DNA of 64,000 nt from Bacteroidota bacterium (GTDB taxonomy: Bacteria > Bacteroidota > Bacteroidia > 2-12-FULL-35-15), in NCBI GenBank assembly GCA_017303895.1, contig JAFLBF010000014.1, positions 3,504 to 67,503 on the forward strand. Direction: 5' to 3'. A program made the position numbers and the translations under genes. The notes under the pieces are model-generated. The model saw only the letters and a list, made by a program, of their open reading frames with translations. It was not told the DNA's origin and made no database searches. This document shows, in pieces, positions 46,581-59,549 of this stretch. The stretch's first letter is position 1, and each line of letters opens with the position of its first letter.

Positions 46581-46581
46581 G

Positions 46582-46655
46582 CGGTCCGGACGGGACTCGA
46601 ACCCGCGACCTCTGCCGTGACAGGGCAGCATTCTAACCAGCTGAACTACCGGACC
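46582..46655 (-). tRNA. tRNA-Asp (anticodon GTC).
   Basis: The reverse complement folds as a 74-nt cloverleaf: GGTCCGG acceptor stem, anticodon arm CTGCC-CTGTCAC-GGCAG, T-loop GGTTCGAGTCC and discriminator G. CCA is not encoded. Confidence 0.9.
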
Positions 46656-46766
46656 TAATTCTGTTAGAATTGGATTGCAAAAGTAGGGTAATTTTTGAAT
46701 TCAGCAAAAAAATAATGAAAAAAATGTGTTACCTAAAATCCGCAAGTCTCATTTTTTGATAAAAAA

Positions 46767-47036: not shown

Positions 47037-47504
47037 TTATAACACACATTTTATTAAATTCATAAATCGAATGGCATCGCCTTTTTTAATTTCAACGTCC
47101 TTTTGGAGATCGCCATCTTTTGAATCTAGTGTAAACCGTTGTGATTGCACCTTGCTTTTCATTAGTTCCATTAAATCCGATTCTTTTATTGGAAATGAGC
47201 CATTGTTTTCTTCTAGAGTAATTATCTTACTATTTTCCAGTAAAAGAAGCATTTTAGAGCCTGATTTTATGGTTCTTCTAACATTAAATGATCCATCACA
47301 AACAAAAATTAACGAATATTCATTGTCTATTTTCTGAATACTTATAAATCCAACGATCTGGTTGGTTTCAAACAATTCTTCTGGTTTTGTCAATTTGGTT
47401 AATTTTCCAGTGAACTTGTCTACATCATTGGTTTTGTACTTACAATTTTGAGAAAAGGTAATAGTTGATAGCAATATCAATATTAAAGCGATTGAATTTT
47501 TCAT
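47037..47504 (-). CDS. Hypothetical secreted protein / lipoprotein.
   Basis: It has a signal peptide (ILILLSTITFSQNC). No motif was recognised. Confidence 0.45.
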   Translation of the reverse strand: MKNSIALILILLSTITFSQNCKYKTNDVDKFTGKLTKLTKPEELFETNQIVGFISIQKIDNEYSLIFVCDGSFNVRRTIKSGSKMLLLLENSKIITLEENNGSFPIKESDLMELMKSKVQSQRFTLDSKDGDLQKDVEIKKGDAIRFMNLIKCVL

Positions 47505-47523
47505 TTATGCTCTTGTTTTATTG

Positions 47524-47922
47524 TTAGTATAATTTCACCGTAGTGCATCCATTTGATGCTATTGTTACAGTTCCAGCCCAAGATAAACTTGTTCCTTGCT
47601 CGTAAGCAGTATAAGCATACGTTCCAGCAGGGGCAGTATATGTTACACAGCCACTTGCCCCACATGATGGAGTTCCTGAATAATTAACCGTTATAGTTCC
47701 CTCTGGCACTCCCTCTACATAAACGTCAACATTACCTAACCCGCTTGTTGTTAGATTCCAAAATGTTGCTTTCCCCTTGTAAGTACAAGTCCCATCATCT
47801 TTTTCTGCTGAAGAAGAGTAATTTGTTGCCGATACATCTGTGCAACCTGTTTCTTTTTTACAACCAATAGTAGCAAATCCTAATAGAATGGAGGCTACAA
47901 GCAATAGTGTTTTTGTTTTCAT
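47524..47922 (-). CDS. Small secreted Cys-rich, Gly/Thr-rich protein.
   Basis: It has a signal peptide plus the lipobox GC. Six Cys residues sit in a 110-aa mature region that is T/G/Y-rich (GTYAYTAYEQGTS). Confidence 0.45.
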   Translation of the reverse strand: MKTKTLLLVASILLGFATIGCKKETGCTDVSATNYSSSAEKDDGTCTYKGKATFWNLTTSGLGNVDVYVEGVPEGTITVNYSGTPSCGASGCVTYTAPAGTYAYTAYEQGTSLSWAGTVTIASNGCTTVKLY

Positions 47923-48038
47923 TTTTAAATTAGTTTAAAAGGTTAGTTTTTATTGACCGTATGGCTAAATTATGAATTATTTCTAAACCCGACAAATATG
48001 TCGTGTTCTTTTTGTTAACTCTTTAGCACTTTTGATAT

Positions 48039-48263
48039 GTGAAAAAGGCATACAAGCAAGAATTAAAGCAATTAGGAAAGAAAATAAAGGCGATTCGGTT
48101 ATCTCAAAAGATGACTCAGGAGGCTCTTGCTGATTTGTGCGAAATTGATGTTAGGACTATTCAGAGGATTGAGAAAGGAGAAAATGGAATAGGTATAAAT
48201 ATTTTGTTTGCAATTAGTGAAGCATTGAAAATTTCTTTGCCTGAATTTTTTAAAAAAGATTAA
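48039..48263 (+). CDS. XRE-family helix-turn-helix transcriptional regulator.
   Basis: MTQEALADLCEIDVRTIQRIEKGE is the canonical HTH_3 motif. It is 74 aa. Confidence 0.8.
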   Translation: MKKAYKQELKQLGKKIKAIRLSQKMTQEALADLCEIDVRTIQRIEKGENGIGINILFAISEALKISLPEFFKKD

Positions 48264-48304
48264 TTGCTTTTATTATAGCATTACCATAGTGCCCAGCAAA
48301 CATG

Positions 48305-49528
48305 TTAAAGAAGGTTCTTGTTATATTCAAGAGAATAGCCCAAAGAATCTGTCCCAGATATCCTTGTTTTGCTAATTATTTGTAATGATTCAGTTGAATG
48401 GATAGCATTGTCTTTGTTAATTTTAATTAGTTTAAAGGCAGAGTTATTTATATATTTCACAAGTAATTTGAATGTGACTTCTCCATCTATGTAATAATAC
48501 CCAGAACTACTGATCTCAATTTTTTCCTTTTTCATTACATTATCTTTTGCGTATGTCAATTCCCATGCCCCATAAAATATAATGGCTAATCTATTTAAGT
48601 TTTCTAATATTTCTTTATTTTGTTTGGATTTTTCTGTTTCAGAATTTACAATTATACCATCTTTTAATTCAATAATTTGACCTTCCAGATATTTCCCCCT
48701 CTTCTTTTGATTTAAATATGAATATTCAATAACTAGCTCTTTTACGGAAAATTTATTCGGATCAAATTTAAAAACCGAATTTTCTATTGCCAAGGGATCA
48801 CCATTACTAAATGCATTTTTAATGATAGACGTTACTTCAATATATTTATTATCAATTCCATAAACTGCATTCTCTATTTTAAAGGCTTTTTTTTCATTCT
48901 CAAAATCATTTAATTCCTTTTCAAGCGTTTTTATTTTTTCACTTTTTTCAAAAAGTTGTTTATCTAGTTGGCTGAATTTAATATTACTATCCTTAATTTC
49001 ATTTTCTTTTTTCTCCAAATCTTTCTTTAATGATGAATTTAGGGCAGCATTTGATTCTAATTTAATCTGCACTTCCTGCAAATCAGCTCTTTTTTGAGTT
49101 ACTTCTTCTTCAATTTTAATGTGTTTTCTTTCAAGCTTTTCATAATCCATTTTTGGAATCCAGTTGCCATCGTCAATTTTTTGAAGTAGTCGAATAGAAC
49201 CTTTATTAATGTATATATATAATCCTTTGCCAAAAGCATTAATCTTATTGAAAAGAATCATCATTATGAATCCCCAGAATAAAGCCCAGACTATTGTAGC
49301 ATAAAATCCTTTGAAACCAAATAGCCACGATAAACATGTAAATGAGTTTAGCTGCAAGTGAACCCAGTCAATTTTTTGTTGTAAACTGTAGTTGTCAGAA
49401 AAATTAAATAATCCAAAAAGGAGGGTTTTATTTGTAATAATCCATACAAAAATTACAGACCCAAAATACGGATTAAGCCTGTTATTAACATAATTACGCA
49501 ATTGATCTTTAACTTCGTCTAACTCCAT
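48305..49528 (-). CDS. Hypothetical membrane protein with a central coiled coil and a C-terminal globular domain.
   Basis: It has two or three N-terminal TM helices and a ~100-aa heptad-rich segment (KIEEEVTQKRADLQEVQIKLESN...). It is divergent from the XRE gene. Confidence 0.45.
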   Translation of the reverse strand: MELDEVKDQLRNYVNNRLNPYFGSVIFVWIITNKTLLFGLFNFSDNYSLQQKIDWVHLQLNSFTCLSWLFGFKGFYATIVWALFWGFIMMILFNKINAFGKGLYIYINKGSIRLLQKIDDGNWIPKMDYEKLERKHIKIEEEVTQKRADLQEVQIKLESNAALNSSLKKDLEKKENEIKDSNIKFSQLDKQLFEKSEKIKTLEKELNDFENEKKAFKIENAVYGIDNKYIEVTSIIKNAFSNGDPLAIENSVFKFDPNKFSVKELVIEYSYLNQKKRGKYLEGQIIELKDGIIVNSETEKSKQNKEILENLNRLAIIFYGAWELTYAKDNVMKKEKIEISSSGYYYIDGEVTFKLLVKYINNSAFKLIKINKDNAIHSTESLQIISKTRISGTDSLGYSLEYNKNLL

Positions 49529-49639
49529 TTTAGAATATGAAATTTATATTAAGCATATAAAATAAAGACAATTTTATCAATTCTTCTAAAAATAGTTTTT
49601 TTTAAGAGAAAACAGATGTTTTTATCGAAATGTATCAGA

Positions 49640-50002
49640 TTAGGCTATGTGATAATGAATGTGAATTGCCAAGTATAGTGTATTTAATGGGTCAAAAACA
49701 CTCTTTACAGGTGGGCTAATTTTTTCTTCTTCATTATAGTATCTATTTATTTCATCAACCAATCTTATCCCCTCTTCATATGAGTTGATTTTAATTTTAG
49801 TGCAATGTGTTGCTAGTTTTTTATAAATGTTATTTTGTGCTTCAAAATACTCATCTGGACTATCCGTAATAACTACTCCCCAGCATTCAGATTTTATGGA
49901 AATTGGTGTATTTGTATTATGACTTCCATCTTTACTCCATCGAATAATAACTCGCCCTTTTCTCTCATTTTCAATTTGATTTATTACATCTATTCCATTC
50001 AT
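49640..50002 (-). CDS. Hypothetical protein (120 aa).
   Basis: It is an ORF in an AT-rich island. No motif was recognised. Confidence 0.35.
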   Translation of the reverse strand: MNGIDVINQIENERKGRVIIRWSKDGSHNTNTPISIKSECWGVVITDSPDEYFEAQNNIYKKLATHCTKIKINSYEEGIRLVDEINRYYNEEEKISPPVKSVFDPLNTLYLAIHIHYHIA

Positions 50003-50392: not shown

Positions 50393-51688
50393 TTAGTTTA
50401 TAGATGGTGGTCTTGCATACAATGGAGAATAATCTCGATCAGAATTGATGCACGCGACCTTTTCATTGTTTTCAAAAGTCCATTCAAGTGAAACGGTTAT
50501 AAAGTTAAATATGAAATTTTTAAGCTTATAATTCGATTTAACAAAATGTAGTTTTTTACTGAAGTGACTTAGTAGGTAATTATAAATAATGTTGCCTATT
50601 GCTCCCATAATCATGAATACCGTATTCTGATTTAAGAAAGAGAAAGGCAGTCGTTTCCAGTTCCAATCATTTAATAGGGTTGTGAAATTTAACTCAATAG
50701 CACCTCGTTGGTTGTAAAATGATATAACCTCTTGGTTAGACATTTTTCTGTTGTTCGTAATAATTGCTCTATAAGTATAGTAGTCGTTTGAATATTTATT
50801 TAGCTTAGTTTGTCTTGAATCCCTTAATTTAGAGACAACAACTCTGTAAGTATTTTCATAGAGATCGTATTCGAACGAATAAGCTTGGCTCGGCATGTCG
50901 CCAATTATAACATTTTCCCAGCCATCTTCACTTTCTAAAGCTTTTCTGAAAATAGCATTGCTGTTTTGTGCGCGAATAAAAAAATCAATTCCCTTTTGAT
51001 TTAAGTACAGTAAAACATTTTTTGAATATGCAGCACTGTCACTTCTAAACCGCTTTATTTTAATTCCTCTCTTTTCAACTATATTAATAGATCTTTCCAG
51101 TGTTTCTAATAGTTGGTAGTTTGCCACAGAATTACCATTTCTGTTTTCAATATAGACAGGTGTTTTCCCTATAAATGCAACTGATGGAAAATAGCCAATA
51201 ACCTCGCTGTACGTTTTTCTGCTGTCATACTTTTCACAAGGGGTTATAACGTTGTCATAATCTAAGGTTGCATTCGAATTTTTATTTAATTGCCCAAGTT
51301 TTAACGCTGTATGAAGCAGTAGCTCGTTTAAAGGTATATTGAGATTTAACTCGTGATCTACTGTTTCTTTGTAATGCTTAGTTACTGGTGTTGCAAAAGA
51401 TTTAAATATGTCAGCAATTCTATCTGGAGAAGGATGTCTATTATTAGGAATTTCCGAAAAATAATGCTTTAGCTGCTTGACATCCTCCAGCCGTTCACTC
51501 CCGCACAATACACTGTATACCCATGATAATATTACATCGCTGTAGCTGTATTTGGCTTGTTTTACTCTTTTTCCTAAGAAATTATCAATTAAACGAGGGA
51601 TTCCTTTTCTCTGCAATTCTTCCATGCAGAAAAGAATACCTCCATAAGGATTGGAAATACGGTTGATATGTCGTATTTTTGTCTTCAC
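50393..51688 (-). CDS. IS1380-family DDE transposase.
   Basis: Family-typical blocks are SVLCGSERLEDVKQL (compare ISEcp1 MLCG...LERLK), FRSDSAAYS (compare FRMDSGYF) and YNQRGAIELNF...LSHF (compare YEKRGNAENYIKE...YNLF). It is 431 aa. Confidence 0.6.
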   Translation of the reverse strand: MKTKIRHINRISNPYGGILFCMEELQRKGIPRLIDNFLGKRVKQAKYSYSDVILSWVYSVLCGSERLEDVKQLKHYFSEIPNNRHPSPDRIADIFKSFATPVTKHYKETVDHELNLNIPLNELLLHTALKLGQLNKNSNATLDYDNVITPCEKYDSRKTYSEVIGYFPSVAFIGKTPVYIENRNGNSVANYQLLETLERSINIVEKRGIKIKRFRSDSAAYSKNVLLYLNQKGIDFFIRAQNSNAIFRKALESEDGWENVIIGDMPSQAYSFEYDLYENTYRVVVSKLRDSRQTKLNKYSNDYYTYRAIITNNRKMSNQEVISFYNQRGAIELNFTTLLNDWNWKRLPFSFLNQNTVFMIMGAIGNIIYNYLLSHFSKKLHFVKSNYKLKNFIFNFITVSLEWTFENNEKVACINSDRDYSPLYARPPSIN

Positions 51689-53045: not shown

Positions 53046-53906
53046 TTATTGTGAATTTTTATCGTCTAGCCTGATAACTCCTAAATTTTCAGGAAAAATT
53101 AAGTATTGATCCATGTTTAATGGCATTTTTTCAAAAATAAACCTGTGAGTTGATTCCGAAGAATCTATAATTAATCCATTTTGGATCTGTCTTAATTCAT
53201 TGTTTTTAACTTCAGAATTTTTATGATGCAGATATAGGCAATAGTCTCTTGTTAGTGGAAAATATAATTCAGCTTCTAAAGGAATTAAAAATTCATAATA
53301 TCCGTTATTTTCAATGATAATAGGATTGTCACTTGTAACCCATCCATAGTTATTATAGTCTTTTAGAATGCAGTAGTCAAATTTTTGTAATATATAATTG
53401 AAATGCCGCATCGACATTAGCATCAAATAGTTTAGTCTATCATCAGGTGCAATATTATCAACATGGTAAATAGCACTTTTTTGTGAGTCATTTATAAAAA
53501 AAGCGATTTCTTTAAGTAGCTTTTCTTTAGTCTCAATATTTGTATAGTAATTGTTAATTCTAGTCCTCATCATTTCTGTTCTACATATTGTGTTAGCAAC
53601 AAATTGCTTTAATAGAATTTCAGATTTATGGCTTAGTGATTCTTTTAAATATAGCTCATCAATTATTTTGTTATAGTATGTTTCTAACTGACCATTTAAA
53701 TTTTCAAAAACACTTGGATTAATGGAGGGAATGGTAGACAATTGAAAGAAATGTGGCTTATTTAAAAAGCTAGCTACATTTTTTAAGGCTGTTCTAGGAA
53801 GCCCTTTTTCCCAAACACATAGCTTTAATTGTCCGTTGTAATCGAACGCAAATTTCTTTAGATATACTTCTCCTAATATGTGATGCCTTCTTTTTGATTT
53901 TTGCAT
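53046..53906 (-). CDS. DUF4238 domain protein.
   Basis: The N-terminal RRHHILGEVYLKKF matches the DUF4238 HH.vP..YL..F signature. It is 286 aa. Confidence 0.5.
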   Translation of the reverse strand: MQKSKRRHHILGEVYLKKFAFDYNGQLKLCVWEKGLPRTALKNVASFLNKPHFFQLSTIPSINPSVFENLNGQLETYYNKIIDELYLKESLSHKSEILLKQFVANTICRTEMMRTRINNYYTNIETKEKLLKEIAFFINDSQKSAIYHVDNIAPDDRLNYLMLMSMRHFNYILQKFDYCILKDYNNYGWVTSDNPIIIENNGYYEFLIPLEAELYFPLTRDYCLYLHHKNSEVKNNELRQIQNGLIIDSSESTHRFIFEKMPLNMDQYLIFPENLGVIRLDDKNSQ

Positions 53907-53911
53907 AGATT

Positions 53912-54748
53912 TTAGATTAAGTCAATTATATCTTGTATTTTTTGAATTGAAGTTGGCAGGTATTTATTATCATGTAAAAAGTGGCGAGTTTGTGAATATG
54001 CAGTCCTTATGTTTTTAGTTTGATAGCTTACCCCATCTCTTTTTACGAAAAATTTTTCGATAATGCTGGGGTAGTCATACCCTTTATATTGGGGTTTGTT
54101 ATTCGATAATTTTATGACAAGAAAAACTAATTGTCTTGTTGTGCCAAGCCATTTTATTTTAGAGATATCTAGGAAATTATTCGTTTGAAAAATATAAATA
54201 TTATTTGAGTCAGCATTTAGAAGCTTTAGTTCAACAAGTTTATTAATTATTAATGCTAATTGCTCATGATTAATATGTTCAAACCAATTGCTTTTAAAAC
54301 ATTTGTTTTCCGAATTAACAAACACTCTTTCTCCTTCTACCCATTTCATTATCCTATCCAATCTTTCTGTATTATCAAATGGGCTAGAAGCTTGGACGTA
54401 TTCATAGACATAACCTTCTATGAATGAAGGAAAGTATCCTGCCCCCTTATATTGGGACTTCTGATAGCTTAAAAACGATGTAATTCTGGGTGTTGGGTAT
54501 GCTATAAGTGTAATAGCAAGAAATCGAAGGTAATCTGGATTATCTTGCCTAATTATGATTGAAATAGAAGCTTTGTAATGCTCTTTTAGATTTATCTTGT
54601 TTCTACGACAGTATAAATACAAGGTATCAACCAATTTTTGTCCAAAAGATTTCTGCTTAGCATTAACTTTATTGGAATTGATTACTTGCTCTATATTCTT
54701 CAGTGTTTTAACTAAATCTATATCATATGGTTCACTGTAGATTTGCAT
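53912..54748 (-). CDS. RteC-like regulatory protein (Bacteroidota mobile-element associated).
   Basis: The C-terminal region (KWLGTTRQLVFLVIKL...IIEKFFVKRDGVSYQT..IRTAYSQTRHF) resembles the RteC winged-helix region. It is recalled from memory, so the call is modest. Confidence 0.3.
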   Translation of the reverse strand: MQIYSEPYDIDLVKTLKNIEQVINSNKVNAKQKSFGQKLVDTLYLYCRRNKINLKEHYKASISIIIRQDNPDYLRFLAITLIAYPTPRITSFLSYQKSQYKGAGYFPSFIEGYVYEYVQASSPFDNTERLDRIMKWVEGERVFVNSENKCFKSNWFEHINHEQLALIINKLVELKLLNADSNNIYIFQTNNFLDISKIKWLGTTRQLVFLVIKLSNNKPQYKGYDYPSIIEKFFVKRDGVSYQTKNIRTAYSQTRHFLHDNKYLPTSIQKIQDIIDLI

Positions 54749-54870: not shown

Positions 54871-55022
54871 AAGTACATTTGTGGCATAATTGTTATGTAG
54901 ATATGTAACATATATGTAATAATTAGTGTATAAGTAAAGCGGTCAATACCATTTTTTAGCGAAATTGTTATTATAAATTGCTATTTGTATTTTATATTAT
55001 TAAGTACTTATAACACAAAAAA

Positions 55023-55181
55023 ATGAGAACAATAGAGATTAAAACCCAAGTAAAAGATCCTAAAGTGATAGAAATCATTAAGGATGCAAAGGCTAAAAAG
55101 CAAGCTATCCACGCTCTTTTAGTTAGCGGAGTTCCTATATCTGAAATCCCAGAAGAATTAAAAATTTCTTTACAAAAATAG
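55023..55181 (+). CDS. Small ORF (52 aa) not in the supplied track.
   Basis: ATG at 55023 through TAG at 55181 gives MRTIEIKTQVKDPKVIEIIKDAKAKKQAIHALLVSGVPISEIPEELKISLQK. It sits 3 bp before the next ORF. Confidence 0.3.
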   Translation: MRTIEIKTQVKDPKVIEIIKDAKAKKQAIHALLVSGVPISEIPEELKISLQK

Positions 55182-55184
55182 GAA

Positions 55185-55670
55185 ATGTATCATCGTTACG
55201 AGTATTCTGTAACTGATGGGGATGTCCATTCATATAAATTTACTGATTATCCTGTAACATTAATACTGGCGCCAGCTCATTACACATTAAGTGGAATTGA
55301 GCCATCTCTTAACTTATATAGCATAGACCTCCTTCGGACAGGAGATAAGATGAATTGTAATTGTGGAGAAACAGTATGTAAAATTTTAGTCGATTTTGTT
55401 AATAATAATAAGAAATGTTCTTTGGGCTTTTATCCTAGTTATAAAGATAATAAGGAAGACGCAAGGTGCTGCTTGTTTAATAAATGGTTAACTAAATATG
55501 TTTTAGATGAAAATATTACAACAATAAAGAATGTTTTAACTTTTCCGACTGAAACAGGAAAAACTAAAGAGGAGCTAACCCTTCAAGTTTTTATGCACGA
55601 TGAGTATGAATATGGAGACTTGATGCTATCGAATTTAAATGCTATTTCAAAAACAATTGCATCTAAATAG
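55185..55670 (+). CDS. Hypothetical Cys-containing protein (161 aa).
   Basis: It has the Cys cluster NCNCGETVC...KCS...RCC. No family was recognised. Confidence 0.4.
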   Translation: MYHRYEYSVTDGDVHSYKFTDYPVTLILAPAHYTLSGIEPSLNLYSIDLLRTGDKMNCNCGETVCKILVDFVNNNKKCSLGFYPSYKDNKEDARCCLFNKWLTKYVLDENITTIKNVLTFPTETGKTKEELTLQVFMHDEYEYGDLMLSNLNAISKTIASK

Positions 55671-55775
55671 TTTTTCGTTAATAATCCCAAAGGATGCTGT
55701 TTTAGAAAGAGGAATCAGTTATAGGTAGAATTTGTGAAAAATACATGTATTATTCCTTATCAATTATATTAATTG

Positions 55776-55783
55776 TAACTTTG
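55776..55783 (+). promoter_or_regulatory. Bacteroidota-type -7 promoter box (TAACTTTG).
   Basis: It matches TAnnTTTG and lies about 22 to 40 nt upstream of candidate start codons at 55805 and 55823. Confidence 0.4.
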
Positions 55784-55804
55784 TCTATAGTGCTTAATTG
55801 AAAA

Positions 55805-56251
55805 GTGATAAATATTAAAATTATGACACCCGATATTTTTATACCATTCTCTGTTAGATTTTCTTTGAAGATATTTACGCTTCCTAGTGTTGGAAAATTG
55901 CTAGGGAATTTGTTATATAAGATTAAAGACCAATATGTTTTTTTGAATTTTGCTTTAAAGGGGATAAAGGACGAATTAATAAAAAACAAAATTCAAATGA
56001 ACGGGAAGGAGATTAAAAAAATTACTAGTCTTAAAAAACTATTAAGTGTAGTAGGTTCCTCTATAAGTGAGAATGAAAGTCAAAATTTGTTATCAATAAA
56101 GGAAAATGTTATGTCTTCTATTGCTACCATTGATGAAATTCTTTTAATTATTAAAGAAAAAGAAGAACATAAAGAGTTGAAGCAAAATTTATTTAACTAT
56201 TCTGAGCTTGCAATAAATTCTCATTTGACAAAGTATAGTAAAGCAATATGA
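55805..56251 (+). CDS. Hypothetical protein; putative cognate partner (antitoxin?) of the downstream MazF-like gene.
   Basis: It is 148 aa and its stop overlaps the start of the next gene (ATGA at 56248-56251). It bears no resemblance to MazE, AbrB or RHH antitoxins. Confidence 0.4.
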   Translation: MINIKIMTPDIFIPFSVRFSLKIFTLPSVGKLLGNLLYKIKDQYVFLNFALKGIKDELIKNKIQMNGKEIKKITSLKKLLSVVGSSISENESQNLLSIKENVMSSIATIDEILLIIKEKEEHKELKQNLFNYSELAINSHLTKYSKAI

Positions 56252-56607
56252 AGATTAGCAGAAGAGATGTTGTTGAGGTCGTATTCGCTTCTAATACAAA
56301 AGCTAGTCATCCTGTTATTGTTCTTTCACCAGAAGAGATTAATTCAGAAGAAGAGAGCTTTTTGGGAGTTATGATTACAGATTCACTATATTTTGATGTA
56401 AACAATGATTTCAGCTTTCCACTAGACGATTCAATGTTTGTAAAACCTTTAAAGGAAAAGAGTTCAAAAGCGAGACTTTATTTGGTTAATTTTTTGCCTA
56501 ATAGTTCTGTCGTTAATAAGGCTAAAATTAATGAGATGAAAATAGATGCTTTTAAGCAGTTAATAAAAGACTTAAATTTAAAAGTTTTTGATATTAATAT
56601 TTCTTGA
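56248..56607 (+). CDS. MazF/PemK-like toxin-fold protein.
   Basis: MKISRRDVVEVVFASNTKASHPVIVLSPEEIN...GVMITD parallels the PemK/MazF pattern R.GDIv.v.F.p..G.E...RPalVlSp...N.....vivcPiT. Confidence 0.5.
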   Translation: MKISRRDVVEVVFASNTKASHPVIVLSPEEINSEEESFLGVMITDSLYFDVNNDFSFPLDDSMFVKPLKEKSSKARLYLVNFLPNSSVVNKAKINEMKIDAFKQLIKDLNLKVFDINIS

Positions 56608-56654
56608 TTTATCTGCACCATCCCACCTTTCTTTTTTATTTTTATTTCTAATAA

Positions 56655-57629
56655 ATGGACGAAAAAACATTTCATAATTTATCGGATGATGAATTAATTC
56701 ATGGGATGAAATTATCGTTAGAAAATTCGAACAAGCATTTTAAAGCAGCTATTTCAATTGAAAAGGAAGAGCTTTATGGTATTGCTAATTCTCATTTGAT
56801 ATTGAGTTCAGAAGAAGGGATCAAGGCACTCTTATTCCTAACCAAATTTTTAAAAATTGAACTTGAGAATATAGATATCAGTCCGTTTTTCAAGAAGCAT
56901 GCCCCAAAACATAAAGTCGCAAAAGAGGTATATTGGGAATTTAAGTATTACAACCAAATTATGGACTCTGTACTGAAGGAGTTAGCGAGTAAAAAAGATA
57001 AGTACATAACTTTTAAAAATGGAATCCCCTCCCTTGATAATGAAAAATTAAAACAAGATTATGTAAGGGGGCTAGCATTAAATAAAAGGCAATTATTGGT
57101 AAGTCATATTAGAAATAATTGGGAGGTTGAAGAACAAGAACAGAAGTGGTGGAATAAAGCCGATTATTATAAAAATAGAGGTTTCTACGTTAATTTTTAT
57201 AATAGGAAATGGGAATCACCAGATGATATTACTAAAGAAATATATTTTGAAAGTAAAAAAATAGTGACAACAATTGTTGAGTTTATGAATGCATGTTGCA
57301 CAAGACAAGATTTAAATGATATACAAGAAACTTTACCCAGCTTACAGATGCCGACAATAGAACTTCATAGCAAAATATTACCTAGTGGTCATAAATTAGA
57401 TCATATTATTATCACGGAGATTCCAAATGCAGATGGAAGTGATATTGATTATAAAATTGAATATGTGGATTGGACTGATATTGATAAGAAAAGAATTCAT
57501 GTAGGAACTTGTTGTTTGACTTTAGGCAGTATATCTTTTGAAAAGTCAGAACCTGTTGGTATTCCAGTTGGTGCAATTAAATTAGCCTGCGAATGGGTTG
57601 AGCAAAGGATGGGAGAAGAGAGAGTATAG
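56655..57629 (+). CDS. HEPN-domain (AbiV-like) protein with an extra C-terminal domain.
   Basis: The N-terminal helical region is HEPN/AbiV-like (LENSNKHFKAAISIEKEELYGIANSHLILSSEEGIKALLF). The R-x5-H motif is present (KRQLLVSH). It is 324 aa. Confidence 0.35.
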   Translation: MDEKTFHNLSDDELIHGMKLSLENSNKHFKAAISIEKEELYGIANSHLILSSEEGIKALLFLTKFLKIELENIDISPFFKKHAPKHKVAKEVYWEFKYYNQIMDSVLKELASKKDKYITFKNGIPSLDNEKLKQDYVRGLALNKRQLLVSHIRNNWEVEEQEQKWWNKADYYKNRGFYVNFYNRKWESPDDITKEIYFESKKIVTTIVEFMNACCTRQDLNDIQETLPSLQMPTIELHSKILPSGHKLDHIIITEIPNADGSDIDYKIEYVDWTDIDKKRIHVGTCCLTLGSISFEKSEPVGIPVGAIKLACEWVEQRMGEERV

Positions 57630-57652
57630 TTTGTAATTCAATATTATCAATG

Positions 57653-57794
57653 ATTTTAGATTAAAAATTATAATTATGCCAAATTTTGGCAATTAAACAG
57701 CCTGAATTTTACTAGAGATTAAAAATATTGGATTTTTAATTCCAAAACGGGTGATAAAATTAGGTTTTTAGAAGTATTCGGATTTTAGGTGTTT
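57653..57794 (+). repeat. Copy A of a ~142-bp imperfect direct repeat.
   Basis: It aligns with 59406-59549. The first ~75 nt are about 85% identical, the middle diverges and the 3' end shares cggattttaggtgtt. It contains the palindrome tgccaaattttggca. Confidence 0.7.
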
Positions 57795-57863
57795 TGCATC
57801 AAAAATGATGTAAAATAAGCTTTACTTAAATAATTTGGGGAAACCTCATGACACAACAACTCT

Positions 57864-58811
57864 ATGCAACCAGATCCTCTTGACTTTTGGAAAAAATATG
57901 AGTTAGTAAGTAGCTCCCAAACTTATTCTATGGAAAAGAGTAAAAGTAAAATTTGTAGATATTGCGATAAGACAGATAAAGAAACAACTTTTACACAAGA
58001 CACTCATTTACTTCCAGAACTTATAGGCGAGAATAACATCCTTACTTTTGATGAATGTGACAAATGCAACAAATTATTCAGCGATTATGAAAGTAGTTTT
58101 TCAATTTTTATACGACCGTATATTACTCTTATTGGCGTAAAGGGTAAAAAGAAGATTCCTAAGTTTCAGTCTCGGACAATTAATAGAAATGAAGAAACAC
58201 GAACAACTCTCATACACAAAAAAGACAATCAGAAAGAGTTGCATATTCAATCTATTGACGATTATTCGTTAAATACAAAAGATAAAACATTTGACATCGT
58301 TTTTAGAAAACCACCTTTTATCCCTTTGAAAGTGTACAAAACTCTTTTGAAAATAGGATTGTCACTATTACCGATAAAATTTGACAAATTCAACAAAAAT
58401 TCATTTGCTTGGCTTACTAATAGGCAAGATGATTTGACATTTATTCCCCAAGGATTTATAACATCTTTAAAAAGAAGATCTTTCACTGAGCCTTCTGCTT
58501 ATTTATATAGAGCAAAAAAAATATTTATAGGCAAAGAGGAGTTTCCAGAATATATTCTAATTCTCTGTTTTGCAAATCAAATCTTTCAAATTTTCCTGCC
58601 ATTTTCTGACGAGTTTAAAAAGATTCATTTTGAACAACGACAACTTGTTTTAAATCTATTTCCAGCCTTTGTATTTGATAAAATCAAAATGTCACAAATC
58701 GTTGAAATAAAGGCATATGACTTTAGTGTTACAACATCAGTAACTGAGAATCACAAAATTTCATTCAGTTATCAAGATGCTCAAATAAATATTCCCGAGA
58801 AAAATAGCTAA
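57864..58811 (+). CDS. Protein with an N-terminal HNH-nuclease-like zinc-finger motif and an unknown C-terminal domain.
   Basis: CRYCDK...DTHLLPELIGENNILTFDECDKCN fits the HNH pattern C.C...(D)H..P...GG...N....C.CN. About 260 aa of unrecognised sequence follow. Confidence 0.45.
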   Translation: MQPDPLDFWKKYELVSSSQTYSMEKSKSKICRYCDKTDKETTFTQDTHLLPELIGENNILTFDECDKCNKLFSDYESSFSIFIRPYITLIGVKGKKKIPKFQSRTINRNEETRTTLIHKKDNQKELHIQSIDDYSLNTKDKTFDIVFRKPPFIPLKVYKTLLKIGLSLLPIKFDKFNKNSFAWLTNRQDDLTFIPQGFITSLKRRSFTEPSAYLYRAKKIFIGKEEFPEYILILCFANQIFQIFLPFSDEFKKIHFEQRQLVLNLFPAFVFDKIKMSQIVEIKAYDFSVTTSVTENHKISFSYQDAQINIPEKNS

Positions 58812-58825
58812 TCAACAAATAATTA

Positions 58826-59323
58826 ATGAAACATTTTATACTTTATAACCAAATTAAAGACAAGTCAATTGATTCACTTCTGAAAAGAATAGGAAGAAAC
58901 GAGAAAAAAGTCATTTGTGATTTAAAATTCATAGATTTAATTTATGGAAAACAATCAATGAATGGCGTTTATGTGATATTTGACCCATCTGACAAACCCG
59001 CTTATGTTGGAAAAACAGGAAGCAGAGCAATTTTGGAGAGAATGGCAGCTCATTATGATCTTAGACAAAATGCGTTCATGAATTCGTTTTTATGCGCTTT
59101 GGCAGGATTTAAAAAAAGTCGAAGTGGACACCAAGCAACAGATAAAGAAATAAAACAGGCTTACGAGGAATCATTGAAATATAAAATGTTATTTATTGAG
59201 ATTCCAGATAAAGCGATTATAAATAGGCTAGAGAGAATAATTTCTAAGGAATTAAACCCTCCACTTAATAGCATAAAAGGGAAAAATGAATACGATTTAA
59301 ATACAAAAATCAAAAATATTTAA
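58826..59323 (+). CDS. GIY-YIG nuclease domain protein (165 aa).
   Basis: GVYVIFDPSDKPAYVGKTGSRAILER provides the GIY...YIG motif plus Arg. A downstream segment (LFIEIPDKAIINRLERIISKELNPPLN) supplies the Glu and Asn. Confidence 0.55.
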   Translation: MKHFILYNQIKDKSIDSLLKRIGRNEKKVICDLKFIDLIYGKQSMNGVYVIFDPSDKPAYVGKTGSRAILERMAAHYDLRQNAFMNSFLCALAGFKKSRSGHQATDKEIKQAYEESLKYKMLFIEIPDKAIINRLERIISKELNPPLNSIKGKNEYDLNTKIKNI

Positions 59324-59405
59324 AACTAAAAAAATTGAGTGCAAATAGGTTGGAAAAATATAAGTAAAAAGAATAAAAAAAGTCTACAATCCAATGTTAT
59401 CAGTC

Positions 59406-59549
59406 ATTTTAGATTAAAAATTATAATCATGCCAAATTTTGGCAAAAAAACAGCCTAAATCTTACTAAAGTTTTAAAACTAAGAATTTTTAACGTCCGAA
59501 ATGGCTGTTAATATTGAATTTTGAGAGACCTGCGGATTTTAGGTGTTAT
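59406..59549 (+). repeat. Copy B of the ~142-bp imperfect direct repeat.
   Basis: See copy A. It contains atgccaaattttggcaa and ends cggattttaggtgtt. It is located upstream of the gene starting at 59614. Confidence 0.7.

What the first reader, a model, noticed from the sequence alone, without database searches (positions are those of the whole stretch)
55776..56607. MazF/PemK-like toxin translationally coupled to an atypical 148-aa upstream partner.
The 56248..56607 product matches the MazF/PemK N-terminal pattern (RRDVVEVVF....SHPVIVLSPEEIN...GVMITD). Its ATG overlaps the stop of the upstream 148-aa ORF (ATGA). That partner has no resemblance to MazE, PemI, AbrB, RHH or Phd antitoxins and is about twice the usual antitoxin size. 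A TAACTTTG -7 box lies just upstream. This could be a toxin-antitoxin module with a new antitoxin family. The partner could also be a sensor or chaperone, as in tripartite or fused systems.
Basis: partly seen in the sequence, partly recalled or inferred. Interest (0 to 1): 0.6.

Follow-up and report, generated by a model that had tools for sequence, protein, structure and literature searches.

The report
MazF-like toxin with new helical partner
This is a self-contained two-gene toxin-antitoxin-type module from a Bacteroidota genomic island, in which a divergent MazF-fold toxin is always paired with a 142-residue helical protein unlike any known antitoxin. That makes it a new variant of a familiar system rather than a new kind of system.

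Summary
ORF 56248..56607 (119 aa) matches Pfam PemK_toxin above its cut-off. Its predicted structure matches only MazF structures among the top 50 PDB hits. Its ATG overlaps the stop of the upstream gene (ATGA). Family alignment and the NCBI annotation place that gene's start at ATG 55823, giving 142 aa rather than 148.

The partner is a real protein. dN/dS is 0.05-0.08, and it has a small family of 17 clusters among 1.84 billion representatives. It lies directly upstream of this MazF subclade in every one of 19 distinct Bacteroidota loci where the DNA is available. No third gene is conserved, and the genomic contexts vary. A TAnnTTTG -7 box lies upstream in 13 of 15 loci.

The partner is all-alpha, basic and soluble. 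It has no Pfam, PADLOC, PHROG, PDB-sequence or PDB/BFVD fold match.

Four independent toxin-inactivating lesions occur in relatives while the partner stays intact, as expected if the partner is the antidote. The toxin keeps the catalytic Thr/Ser, but an invariant His replaces the catalytic Arg.

Verdict: a type II TA-like module with a new candidate antitoxin family. Toxicity and neutralisation are untested. Interest is moderate.

The parts
55776..55783 (+). Bacteroidota-type -7 promoter box TAACTTTG, 39 nt before the partner's ATG. It is the likely promoter of the two-gene operon.
   Evidence: The sequence is. A TAnnTTTG box lies within 55 nt upstream of the partner start in 13 of 15 related loci, where 3.7% per locus is expected. 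The motif alone is not enriched in the window.
55736..55755 (.). Palindrome GAAAAATACATGTATTATTC (core ATACATGTAT) just upstream of the -7 box. It is only a candidate operator.
   Evidence: A second imperfect inverted repeat (55750-55766 / 55795-55811) brackets the -7 box. No comparable repeat is conserved in the other loci, so its function is unproven.
55823..56251 (+). Partner gene (142 aa, MBN8697414.1, annotated as hypothetical). It is a candidate antitoxin of a new all-alpha family.
   Evidence: The start is fixed by the family alignment and the NCBI call. dN/dS is 0.05-0.08. The AlphaFold model has pLDDT 81.7 and pTM 0.70, with five helices including H87-141. No family or fold match was found. 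The gene lies upstream of the toxin in every locus examined.
56248..56251 (+). ATGA start/stop overlap, implying translational coupling.
   Evidence: In relatives the junction ranges from a 17-nt gap to a 14-nt overlap, and most overlap by 1-14 nt.
56248..56607 (+). MazF/PemK-fold toxin gene (119 aa, MBN8697415.1). Invariant His21 sits at the catalytic Arg position and Thr44 at the catalytic Thr position.
   Evidence: Pfam PF02452 is above its cut-off, and 17 of 17 members hit it. Foldseek top hits are 1ne8, 4me7, 4mdx, 5hkc and 5ckb.

Best explanation
This is a two-gene type II toxin-antitoxin-type module carried on a low-GC genomic island of a Bacteroidota bacterium. A promoter with a TAnnTTTG -7 box drives a bicistronic transcript. 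The first gene encodes a 142-aa basic, soluble, all-helical protein. Its stop codon overlaps the start of the second gene, so the two are translationally coupled. The second gene encodes a MazF-fold protein, most likely a sequence-specific endoribonuclease that uses His21 in place of the usual Arg, together with Thr44.

The helical protein is proposed to be the cognate protein antitoxin. It would bind the acidic MazF-like dimer and block its RNA groove. The most likely contact is the conserved, basic part of its long C-terminal helix (residues ~116-141, motif LKxNxFxxSxxAxxxxLxKY), which probably extends beyond the helical core.

Shown here: the toxin fold, the coding status of the partner, strict pairing, coupling, promoter position, absence of a third component, and novelty of the partner.

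Inferred: toxicity, RNase activity, physical binding, the binding surface, and any autoregulation or phage-defence role.
For: Toxin identity: Pfam PemK_toxin scores 25.3 bits against a 23.1 cut-off, and 17 of 17 family members hit the model. The AlphaFold model's top 50 PDB matches are all MazF, at TM 0.57-0.75.

Catalytic register: T/S44 aligns with the catalytic Thr48/Thr52. His21 aligns with Arg25/Arg29. Lys and Ser substitutions at these two sites are tolerated in M. tuberculosis MazF4 and MazF7 (PMC7354611).

Partner is a real protein: dN/dS is 0.05-0.08. Length (139-147 aa) and motifs are conserved across 23-51% identity.

Pairing: the partner is present directly upstream in 15 of 15 toxin loci that have upstream DNA. 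A toxin gene, intact or damaged, lies downstream of every partner looked up from the partner side.

Self-contained and mobile: no third conserved gene was found and the flanks vary.

Own promoter: a -7 box is present in 13 of 15 loci.

Linked evolution: pairwise identities of partners and toxins correlate (r=0.73, Mantel 1 of 10000). The partner diverges faster, at 37% mean identity against 62% for the toxin, as is usual for antitoxins.

Asymmetric decay: four independent toxin lesions were found. These are frameshifts in L015, L023 and L027, and a nonsense codon 34 in L031/L032 seen in two independent samples. The partner is intact in all of them. The unbiased counts are 4/16 toxins against 0/14 partners (Fisher one-sided p=0.066).
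Against: The partner lacks every hallmark of known MazF antitoxins. It has no AbrB, RHH, DUF3018 or wHTH DNA-binding domain and no acidic C-terminal tail. It is basic (pI ~9-9.5), and its C-terminal segment carries a net charge of about +3. It is predicted to be well folded rather than partly disordered.

The canonical catalytic Arg is absent from the toxin, so it could be catalytically altered or inactive.

The identity correlation is expected for any two linked genes and does not prove contact.

The lesion asymmetry is only suggestive (p=0.066), and some frameshifts could be assembly errors.

No conserved operator was found.

PADLOC and PHROGs do not recognise either protein.
Confidence: 0.65

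Rival explanations
1. The pair is a phage-defence (abortive infection) module. The helical partner acts mainly as a sensor or regulator that holds the MazF-like RNase inactive until a phage trigger appears, rather than as a passive labile antitoxin. This is a functional refinement of the TA model, not its opposite.
For: The pair sits in a low-GC island. Neighbours include a HEPN AbiV abortive-infection gene 47 nt downstream (Pfam E=4e-17, NCBIfam AbiV_defense), DUF4238, HNH_5, GIY-YIG (weak UzuA hit) and a DDE transposase. The partner is larger and better folded than a typical antitoxin.
Against: In other loci the neighbours are housekeeping or unknown genes, not defence genes. PADLOC gives no hit. 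No copies occur in phage, plasmid or viral collections. No sensor-type domain is detectable.
Confidence: 0.15
2. The MazF-fold protein is not a toxin. With His replacing the catalytic Arg it may be an inactive or repurposed RNA-binding protein, and the two proteins form a non-toxic regulatory complex.
For: Invariant His21 sits at the Arg25/Arg29 position, which mutagenesis shows to be essential in canonical MazFs (PMC7354611 and PMC10893535). The Pfam score is borderline. No PDB sequence-level match to any MazF was found. The partner resembles no antitoxin.
Against: His is a competent general acid/base in many RNases, and Lys substitutes at this site in active MazF4. The Thr/Ser partner residue is conserved. 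Recurrent inactivating lesions hit the MazF-like gene but never the partner. Tight coupling, antitoxin-first order, patchy distribution and variable contexts all fit a selfish TA module.
Confidence: 0.12
3. The roles are reversed. The basic helical protein is the toxic component, for example through nucleic-acid or membrane binding, and the acidic MazF-fold protein neutralises it.
For: The charge pattern is the opposite of E. coli MazE/MazF: the partner has pI ~9-9.5 and the MazF-like protein pI 5.2-6.4. The partner's fold is unknown.
Against: B. subtilis MazF is equally acidic, with pI 5.07. Lesions accumulate in the MazF-like gene while the partner stays intact, which would be lethal if the partner were the toxin. 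No member has a transmembrane segment. Upstream-gene-as-antitoxin is the usual order.
Confidence: 0.04
4. The upstream ORF is not a functional protein. It would be either a chance ORF in AT-rich DNA or the template of an RNA antitoxin, as in type III ToxIN systems whose toxins share a Kid/MazF-like fold.
For: The region is 29-30% GC, where long ORFs arise easily. The ORF has no database annotation.
Against: dN/dS is 0.05-0.08 at dS of 0.8-1.5. The protein family is conserved across 23-51% identity with invariant residues. The helical model is confident. No tandem repeats occur in 55000-57000 apart from a 15-nt TTTTTA run downstream of the toxin. No Rfam family matched.
Confidence: 0.01

Closest known systems
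MazEF (E. coli chpA; B. subtilis ydcDE/EndoA) type II toxin-antitoxin systems
   Same: The toxin has the MazF SH3-like barrel; the best fold matches are 1ne8, 4me7, 4mdx and 5ckb. The catalytic Thr position is retained. The order is antitoxin-first in a two-gene operon with overlapping or abutting ORFs.
   Different: The partner is unrelated to MazE. It is all-alpha and 142 aa, against ~82-93 aa, and basic rather than acidic. It has no AbrB or RHH DNA-binding domain. The toxin shares only 13-18% identity with solved MazFs and has no PDB sequence hit. It has a shorter beta1-beta2 loop and a conserved insertion (SFPLDDSMF region). An invariant His replaces the catalytic Arg.
PemIK / Kis-Kid (plasmids R100/R1) and S. 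aureus PemIK
   Same: The toxin belongs to the same Pfam family (PF02452), with the same operon logic.
   Different: These are plasmid-borne addiction modules with AbrB-type or loop-mimicking antitoxins. The present family has no plasmid or phage copies, and its partner is unrelated.
MazF-family toxins paired with alternative antitoxin classes (AbrB/SpoVT, CopG/RHH, DUF3018, winged HTH; PMC3879964)
   Same: The principle is the same: one toxin fold combines with different antitoxin families through partner swapping.
   Different: All four described classes carry a recognisable N-terminal DNA-binding domain and are short. This partner matches none of them at E<=1 in any of 12 members scanned, and it is roughly twice as long.
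All-helical antitoxins without a DNA-binding domain (e.g. epsilon of epsilon/zeta, PaaA2 of ParE2). This comparison rests on general knowledge and was not tested here.
   Same: The possible mode of action is similar: a folded or helix-forming antitoxin neutralises by direct binding, and transcriptional control may be left to other factors.
   Different: No sequence or fold similarity was detected; the best PDB Foldseek E-value is 0.49. Those antitoxins pair with zeta or ParE toxins, not MazF. No conserved third regulator gene is present here.
ToxIN / AbiQ type III systems (toxin with Kid/MazF-like fold, repetitive RNA antitoxin)
   Same: The toxin fold is distantly related, and the antidote is likewise encoded directly upstream of the toxin.
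   Different: The upstream element here is a protein-coding gene under purifying selection, not a tandem RNA repeat. The Foldseek top hits are MazF proteins, not ToxN.

Membership tests
MazF/PemK toxin family (Pfam PF02452) | Sequence match to the family profile at or above the curated cut-off | tested here: met
   The window protein scores 25.3 bits against a 23.1 cut-off, E=1.8e-5, covering profile positions 2-103 of 109. All 17 family members hit PF02452 at E<=1, with a best E-value of 1.1e-6. The margin is narrow, and NCBIfam gave no hit.
MazF/PemK toxin family (Pfam PF02452) | SH3-like beta-barrel MazF/Kid fold with a C-terminal helix | tested here: met
   The AlphaFold model has pLDDT 78.8 and pTM 0.76, with five strands and helix 99-114. 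Its top 50 Foldseek PDB hits are all MazF, at probability 1.00 and TM 0.57-0.75. This is a predicted structure, not a solved one.
MazF/PemK toxin family (Pfam PF02452) | Catalytic Arg at the start of strand beta2 (Arg25 in B. subtilis, Arg29 in E. coli) | tested here: not met
   Invariant His21 occupies this position in all 17 members. A Lys variant is known in the active M. tuberculosis MazF4 (PMC7354611). A His variant is not documented in the papers read.
MazF/PemK toxin family (Pfam PF02452) | Catalytic Thr (or Ser) at the end of strand beta3 (Thr48/Thr52) | tested here: met
   Position 44 is Thr in 14 and Ser in 3 of the 17 members. The 23-residue spacing from His21 is the same as Arg to Thr in both reference MazFs.
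MazF/PemK toxin family (Pfam PF02452) | Sequence-specific endoribonuclease activity and growth inhibition | not testable with these tools
   The only evidence is indirect: four independent inactivating lesions in the toxin gene with the partner intact.
Known MazF-linked antitoxins (MazE/PemI AbrB-type, CopG/RHH, DUF3018, winged HTH, Phd/YefM) | Sequence membership in one of these antitoxin families | tested here: not met
   No such Pfam family was hit at E<=1 by any of 12 partners. There were no NCBIfam, PADLOC or PHROG hits. A profile search against PDB sequences returned only designed helical repeat proteins.
Known MazF-linked antitoxins (MazE/PemI AbrB-type, CopG/RHH, DUF3018, winged HTH, Phd/YefM) | N-terminal DNA-binding fold (swapped-hairpin barrel, ribbon-helix-helix or HTH) | tested here: not met
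Known MazF-linked antitoxins (MazE/PemI AbrB-type, CopG/RHH, DUF3018, winged HTH, Phd/YefM) | Acidic, extended C-terminal toxin-binding region | tested here: not met
   Partner pI is 8.7-9.6 in 12 of 13 members. The C-terminal segment 116-142 carries a mean net charge of +3.0. It is predicted to be helical rather than extended.
Type II toxin-antitoxin module (generic) | Two small co-oriented genes, overlapping or tightly adjacent, conserved as a pair | tested here: met
   The window has an ATGA overlap. The pair is present in 19 distinct loci, with junctions ranging from a 17-nt gap to a 14-nt overlap.
Type II toxin-antitoxin module (generic) | Self-contained unit found in varied genomic contexts, with its own promoter | tested here: met
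   No third gene is conserved, and the flanking genes differ. A -7 box is present in 13 of 15 loci.
Type II toxin-antitoxin module (generic) | Antitoxin binds and neutralises the toxin, and the antitoxin or complex autoregulates the operon | not testable with these tools
   No complex prediction or experiment was possible. Inverted repeats occur around the window promoter but are not conserved in the other loci.
Tripartite / chaperone-assisted (TAC) or fused TA systems | A conserved third gene (chaperone or regulator), or extra fused domains | tested here: not met
   All-vs-all comparison of flanking ORFs in 17 loci finds only the two genes conserved. Partner family members are 52-165 aa and show a single matched stretch. 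An HTH_XRE gene lies upstream in one lineage only (L006).
Type III (ToxIN-like) systems | A tandem-repeat RNA antitoxin upstream of the toxin | tested here: not met
   No tandem repeats lie upstream of the toxin. The upstream ORF has dN/dS of 0.05-0.08.

The most novel reading that the evidence does not exclude
The 142-aa protein founds a previously undescribed antitoxin fold and neutralisation mode for MazF-type RNases. In this reading a folded, basic helical bundle docks a protruding C-terminal helix onto an acidic MazF variant that uses His instead of Arg. This would replace the usual acidic, RNA-mimicking disordered tail attached to a DNA-binding domain. Within this Bacteroidota defence island the partner might also act as the phage-sensing switch of an abortive-infection module.
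Probability: 0.25. Interest if true: 0.55.

Novelty: new variant of a known kind. Interest (0 to 1): 0.42.

Why it matters
MazF toxins are among the best-studied bacterial RNases. Their known antitoxins all combine a small DNA-binding domain with an acidic toxin-binding tail. This partner is unrelated, twice as large, basic and fully helical, yet strictly linked to its toxin. It would extend the repertoire of ways a MazF fold can be silenced.

It would also add an antitoxin family that current annotation pipelines miss: NCBI labels the toxin but calls the partner hypothetical.

The invariant Arg-to-His change offers a natural test of the MazF catalytic mechanism.

The family is small and confined to uncultured Bacteroidota, so its practical impact is limited. 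New antitoxin families are reported regularly, so specialists would be interested rather than astonished.

Tried and rejected
- **Family searches for the partner.** Pfam, NCBIfam, PADLOC and PHROGs gave nothing meaningful. The Arg_repressor_C hit (14.8 bits, 1 of 12 members) was rejected as chance.
- **PDB sequence searches.** The partner profile matched only designed helical repeat proteins, which reflects composition. The toxin profile matched no MazF at E<=1, only spurious TRPM8 hits.
- **Profile search of 1.84 billion representatives.** It found only the 17-member family, with no remote relatives or fusions.
- **hhalign of the toxin profile against single MazF sequences.** Probability was low (2.6-6%), but the register was consistent. 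MAFFT confirmed the register.
- **Conserved operator.** Inverted repeats are present in the window but not conserved elsewhere.
- **Sigma-70 promoter and terminator scan.** Results were uninformative: 21 sites against 18.7 expected, and no terminators.
- **Plasmid, phage and IMG/VR searches.** No copies were found.
- **Transmembrane or secreted partner.** Rejected, because the maximum 19-residue hydropathy is below 1.4 in all members.
- **Shorter antitoxin from internal Met59.** Rejected, because that Met is not conserved.
- **Type III RNA antitoxin and chance ORF.** Rejected.
- **Tripartite system.** Rejected.
Full report
**1. What is in the sequence**

Two co-oriented ORFs lie on the + strand. 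One runs from 55805/55823 to 56251 and the other from 56248 to 56607. Its ATG overlaps the TGA of the first ORF (ATGA, 56248-56251). TAACTTTG lies at 55776-55783.

The longest version of the upstream ORF starts at GTG 55805 and gives 148 aa. All relatives, however, start at a Met aligned with ATG 55823 (MTPDIF...). NCBI annotates the same 142-aa product: MBN8697414.1, a hypothetical protein from a Bacteroidetes MAG contig of 82,896 nt. The downstream product is MBN8697415.1, annotated as a PemK/MazF family toxin.

**2. The toxin**

The 119-aa protein matches Pfam PemK_toxin over almost the whole profile. The score is E=1.8e-5 and 25.3 bits, against a cut-off of 23.1. All 17 members of its family (56-100% identical) hit the same model.

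The family is very divergent. Its profile finds no MazF among PDB sequences at E<=1, and NCBIfam, PADLOC and PHROGs are silent.

An AlphaFold model built on the 17-sequence alignment has pLDDT 78.8 and pTM 0.76. It contains five strands and a C-terminal helix. All of its top 50 Foldseek PDB matches are MazF proteins: B. subtilis YdcE/EndoA, B. anthracis MoxT, MazF-mt3, and S. aureus, E. coli and D. radiodurans MazF. They match at probability 1.00, TM 0.57-0.75 and 10-18% identity.

I confirmed my recalled B. subtilis and E. coli MazF sequences as exact PDB chains. I then aligned them to the family by hhalign and MAFFT, and the register agrees:
- Thr44 (Thr in 14 and Ser in 3 of 17 members) corresponds to the catalytic Thr48/Thr52.
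- The catalytic Arg25/Arg29 position is occupied by a His that is invariant in the family.

Mutagenesis shows these two residues are essential in canonical MazFs. Lys and Ser substitutions occur in the active M. tuberculosis MazF4 and MazF7 (PMC7354611; PMC10893535). [quoted passage not shown] That is inference.

**3. The partner is a real, conserved protein, always paired with this toxin**

A single-sequence search found only the protein itself. I therefore looked upstream of the toxin homologues. Every locus with upstream DNA has a homologous ORF of 139-147 aa that ends between 1 nt before and 13 nt after the toxin start.

Searches with a partner profile gave the following:
- 10 clusters among 5.8 billion proteins.
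- 17 representatives among 1.84 billion clusters at 50% identity, all 52-165 aa, each with a single matched stretch and no fusions.

I also looked up partners directly, including the most divergent ones. Each time a MazF-like gene lies immediately downstream. In total there are 19 distinct pairs and no counter-example. The only toxins without a visible partner sit at contig ends (L005/L011, L019).

An all-against-all comparison of flanking ORFs in 17 loci shows only these two genes conserved. The neighbours are unrelated: peptidase, LytB, aminotransferase, permease, IS1595 transposase and others.

Among close relatives dN/dS is 0.05-0.08 for the partner and 0.03-0.05 for the toxin, at dS of 0.65-1.6. 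No tandem repeats lie upstream of the toxin and no Rfam family matches. A chance ORF and an RNA antitoxin are therefore excluded.

All loci come from Bacteroidota MAGs or metagenomes. Nothing was found in plasmid, phage or viral collections.

**4. What the partner looks like**

The AlphaFold model was built from 10 sequences and has pLDDT 81.7 and pTM 0.70. It is entirely helical, with helices at 9-17, 21-30, 32-53, 61-80 and one long helix at 87-141.

Helices 32-53 and 61-80 are too short to cover the 55-residue helix. Its C-terminal third, which carries the conserved residues Lys120, Phe124, Ser127, Ala130, Leu135, Lys137 and Tyr138, therefore probably projects from the core. This is a geometric inference; coordinates were not inspected.

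The protein is soluble, with no transmembrane-grade segment. It is basic, at pI ~9-9.5. Segment 86-115 is mildly acidic and segment 116-142 carries about +3.

It matches nothing:
- No Pfam family at E<=1 that is shared by more than 2 of 12 members.
- No PDB sequence apart from designed helical repeats.
- No PDB fold (best E=0.49, TM<0.5).
- No viral predicted structure.

The antitoxin classes described upstream of MazF toxins are AbrB/SpoVT, CopG/RHH, DUF3018 and winged HTH (PMC3879964). The partner belongs to none of them.

**5. Evidence on how it works**

- **Operon with its own promoter.** The Bacteroidota -7 motif TAnnTTTG is not enriched in the window as a whole (95 matches against 85 expected). 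It does lie within 55 nt upstream of the partner's ATG in 13 of 15 loci, where 3.7% per locus is expected (binomial 3e-17).
- **Translational coupling.** Overlapping or abutting ORFs are conserved.
- **Linked evolution.** Pairwise identities of partners and toxins correlate (r=0.73, Mantel 1 of 10000). The partner diverges faster, at 37% mean identity against 62% for the toxin. This fits an antitoxin-toxin pair but would also arise from linkage alone.
- **Asymmetric decay.** Four independent lesions inactivate the toxin while the partner stays intact:
  - A frameshift near codon 25 in L015.
  - A single-base deletion at codon 50 in L023, not in a homopolymer, in a copy otherwise 99% identical to the intact L005 gene.
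  - A frameshift near codon 100 in L027.
  - An in-frame stop at codon 34 in L031 and L032, seen in two independent samples.

  Counting only observations not biased by how the locus was found gives 4/16 toxins against 0/14 partners (Fisher one-sided p=0.066). This is the pattern expected if losing the partner alone is lethal and losing the toxin is harmless. It is suggestive rather than conclusive.
- **Operator.** No conserved operator was found. The window has a palindrome (55736-55755) and an inverted repeat bracketing the -7 box, but other loci do not share them.

**6. Most likely mechanism and rivals**

I commit to a type II TA-type module (confidence 0.65). The helical protein would be a proteic antitoxin that binds and blocks a MazF-fold endoribonuclease, probably through its conserved C-terminal helix. 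The conserved Tyr138 may act as an anchor, by analogy with the aromatic hot-spot residues of MazE-type antitoxins. That analogy is a lead, not a test.

The rivals are:
- A defence-specific sensor role for the partner (0.15). This is a refinement supported only by the island context in this window.
- A non-toxic MazF-fold protein, because of the Arg-to-His change (0.12).
- Reversed roles (0.04). This is contradicted by the lesion pattern and by the equally acidic B. subtilis MazF.
- A non-coding or chance upstream ORF (0.01). This is refuted.
- The tripartite or chaperone idea. It is not supported.

**7. Context**

The pair lies in a low-GC block (0.29-0.32 against 0.36-0.42 elsewhere) spanning roughly 46.7-59.5 kb, next to tRNA-Asp. 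The block carries:
- A DDE transposase.
- A DUF4238 protein.
- A HEPN AbiV abortive-infection gene, 47 nt downstream of the toxin.
- An HNH_5 protein.
- A GIY-YIG protein.

No terminator-like site and no -7 box lie between the toxin and AbiV, so AbiV may be co-transcribed here. AbiV is not linked to the pair in any other locus.

**8. Comparison, novelty and score**

The module works like MazEF/PemIK. The toxin qualifies as a divergent PF02452 member on profile, fold and the catalytic Thr/Ser, but it fails the canonical Arg criterion. The partner fails every membership test for known antitoxin families.

Partner swapping among TA families is well established (PMC3879964; PMC10440598). This is therefore a new variant of a known kind: a new candidate antitoxin family plus a His-variant MazF clade confined to Bacteroidota. 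It is not a new category. Interest is 0.42.

Noticed in passing
window 46731-46750 and 59525-59544 (also 57779-57790): A 20-nt inverted repeat (ACCTAAAATCCGCAAGTCTC / GAGACCTGCGGATTTTAGGT, 19 of 20 complementary) brackets the low-GC island (~12.8 kb), 75 nt from the 5' end of tRNA-Asp (46581-46655, minus strand). Its 12-mer core CGGATTTTAGGT occurs three times in the window against 0.32 expected. These may be terminal inverted repeats or recombination sites of a mobile defence island. No integrase was found, only a DDE transposase inside.
   Followed up: partly
window 57628-57795 and 59381-59548: A ~165-nt direct repeat (~80% identical) contains the palindrome TGCCAAATTTTGGCA and ends in the CGGATTTTAGGTG core. 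One copy follows the AbiV gene and the other follows the GIY-YIG gene, so the repeats bracket the HNH_5 + GIY-YIG pair like cassette boundaries.
   Followed up: partly
window 56655-57629 (+): A 324-aa HEPN AbiV abortive-infection protein (Pfam PF18728 E=4e-17; NCBIfam AbiV_defense) starts 47 nt after the toxin stop. No terminator-like hairpin and no TAnnTTTG box lie between them, so it may ride on the same transcript here. It is not linked to the pair in any other locus.
   Followed up: partly
window 53046-53906 (-) and 53912-54748 (-): A DUF4238 protein (E=1e-20) is preceded, 5 nt upstream on the same strand, by a 278-aa protein with no family match. This may be another two-gene module of the island.
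   Followed up: no
window 55023-55181 (+) and 55185-55670 (+): A 52-aa ORF is followed after 3 nt by a 161-aa ORF with a weak sub-threshold DUF6169 match (E=1.3e-3). This is another tightly spaced small-gene pair, immediately upstream of the MazF module, of unknown function.
   Followed up: no
window 57864-58811 (+) and 58826-59323 (+): Two adjacent nuclease-type genes. One is a 315-aa protein with an N-terminal HNH_5 motif just under the Pfam cut-off. The other is a 165-aa GIY-YIG protein with weak PADLOC UzuA hits (E~4e-4).
   Followed up: no
window 50393-51688 (-): A DDE transposase (DDE_Tnp_1_4, E=1e-17) lies inside the low-GC island. The ORFs around it (47037-50002) have no Pfam or PHROG match.
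   Followed up: no
L015:841-1193, L023:2260-2612, L027:735-1110, L031:732-1085, L032:646-999: In four related lineages the MazF-like gene carries a frameshift or a premature stop. The stop at codon 34 is seen in two independent samples. The upstream partner gene is intact in all of them.
   Followed up: yes
L006:2035-2307 (also L007, L008, L012): In one Bacteroidales lineage a 90-aa HTH_XRE protein is encoded 105 nt upstream of the partner on the same strand. It could be a lineage-specific regulator. It is absent from all other loci.
   Followed up: no
window 55736-55755 and 55750-55766 / 55795-55811: A 20-nt palindrome (core ATACATGTAT) and a 17-nt imperfect inverted repeat flank the TAACTTTG box upstream of the partner gene. 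They are candidate operator sites, but they are not conserved in other loci and could arise by chance in AT-rich DNA.
   Followed up: partly
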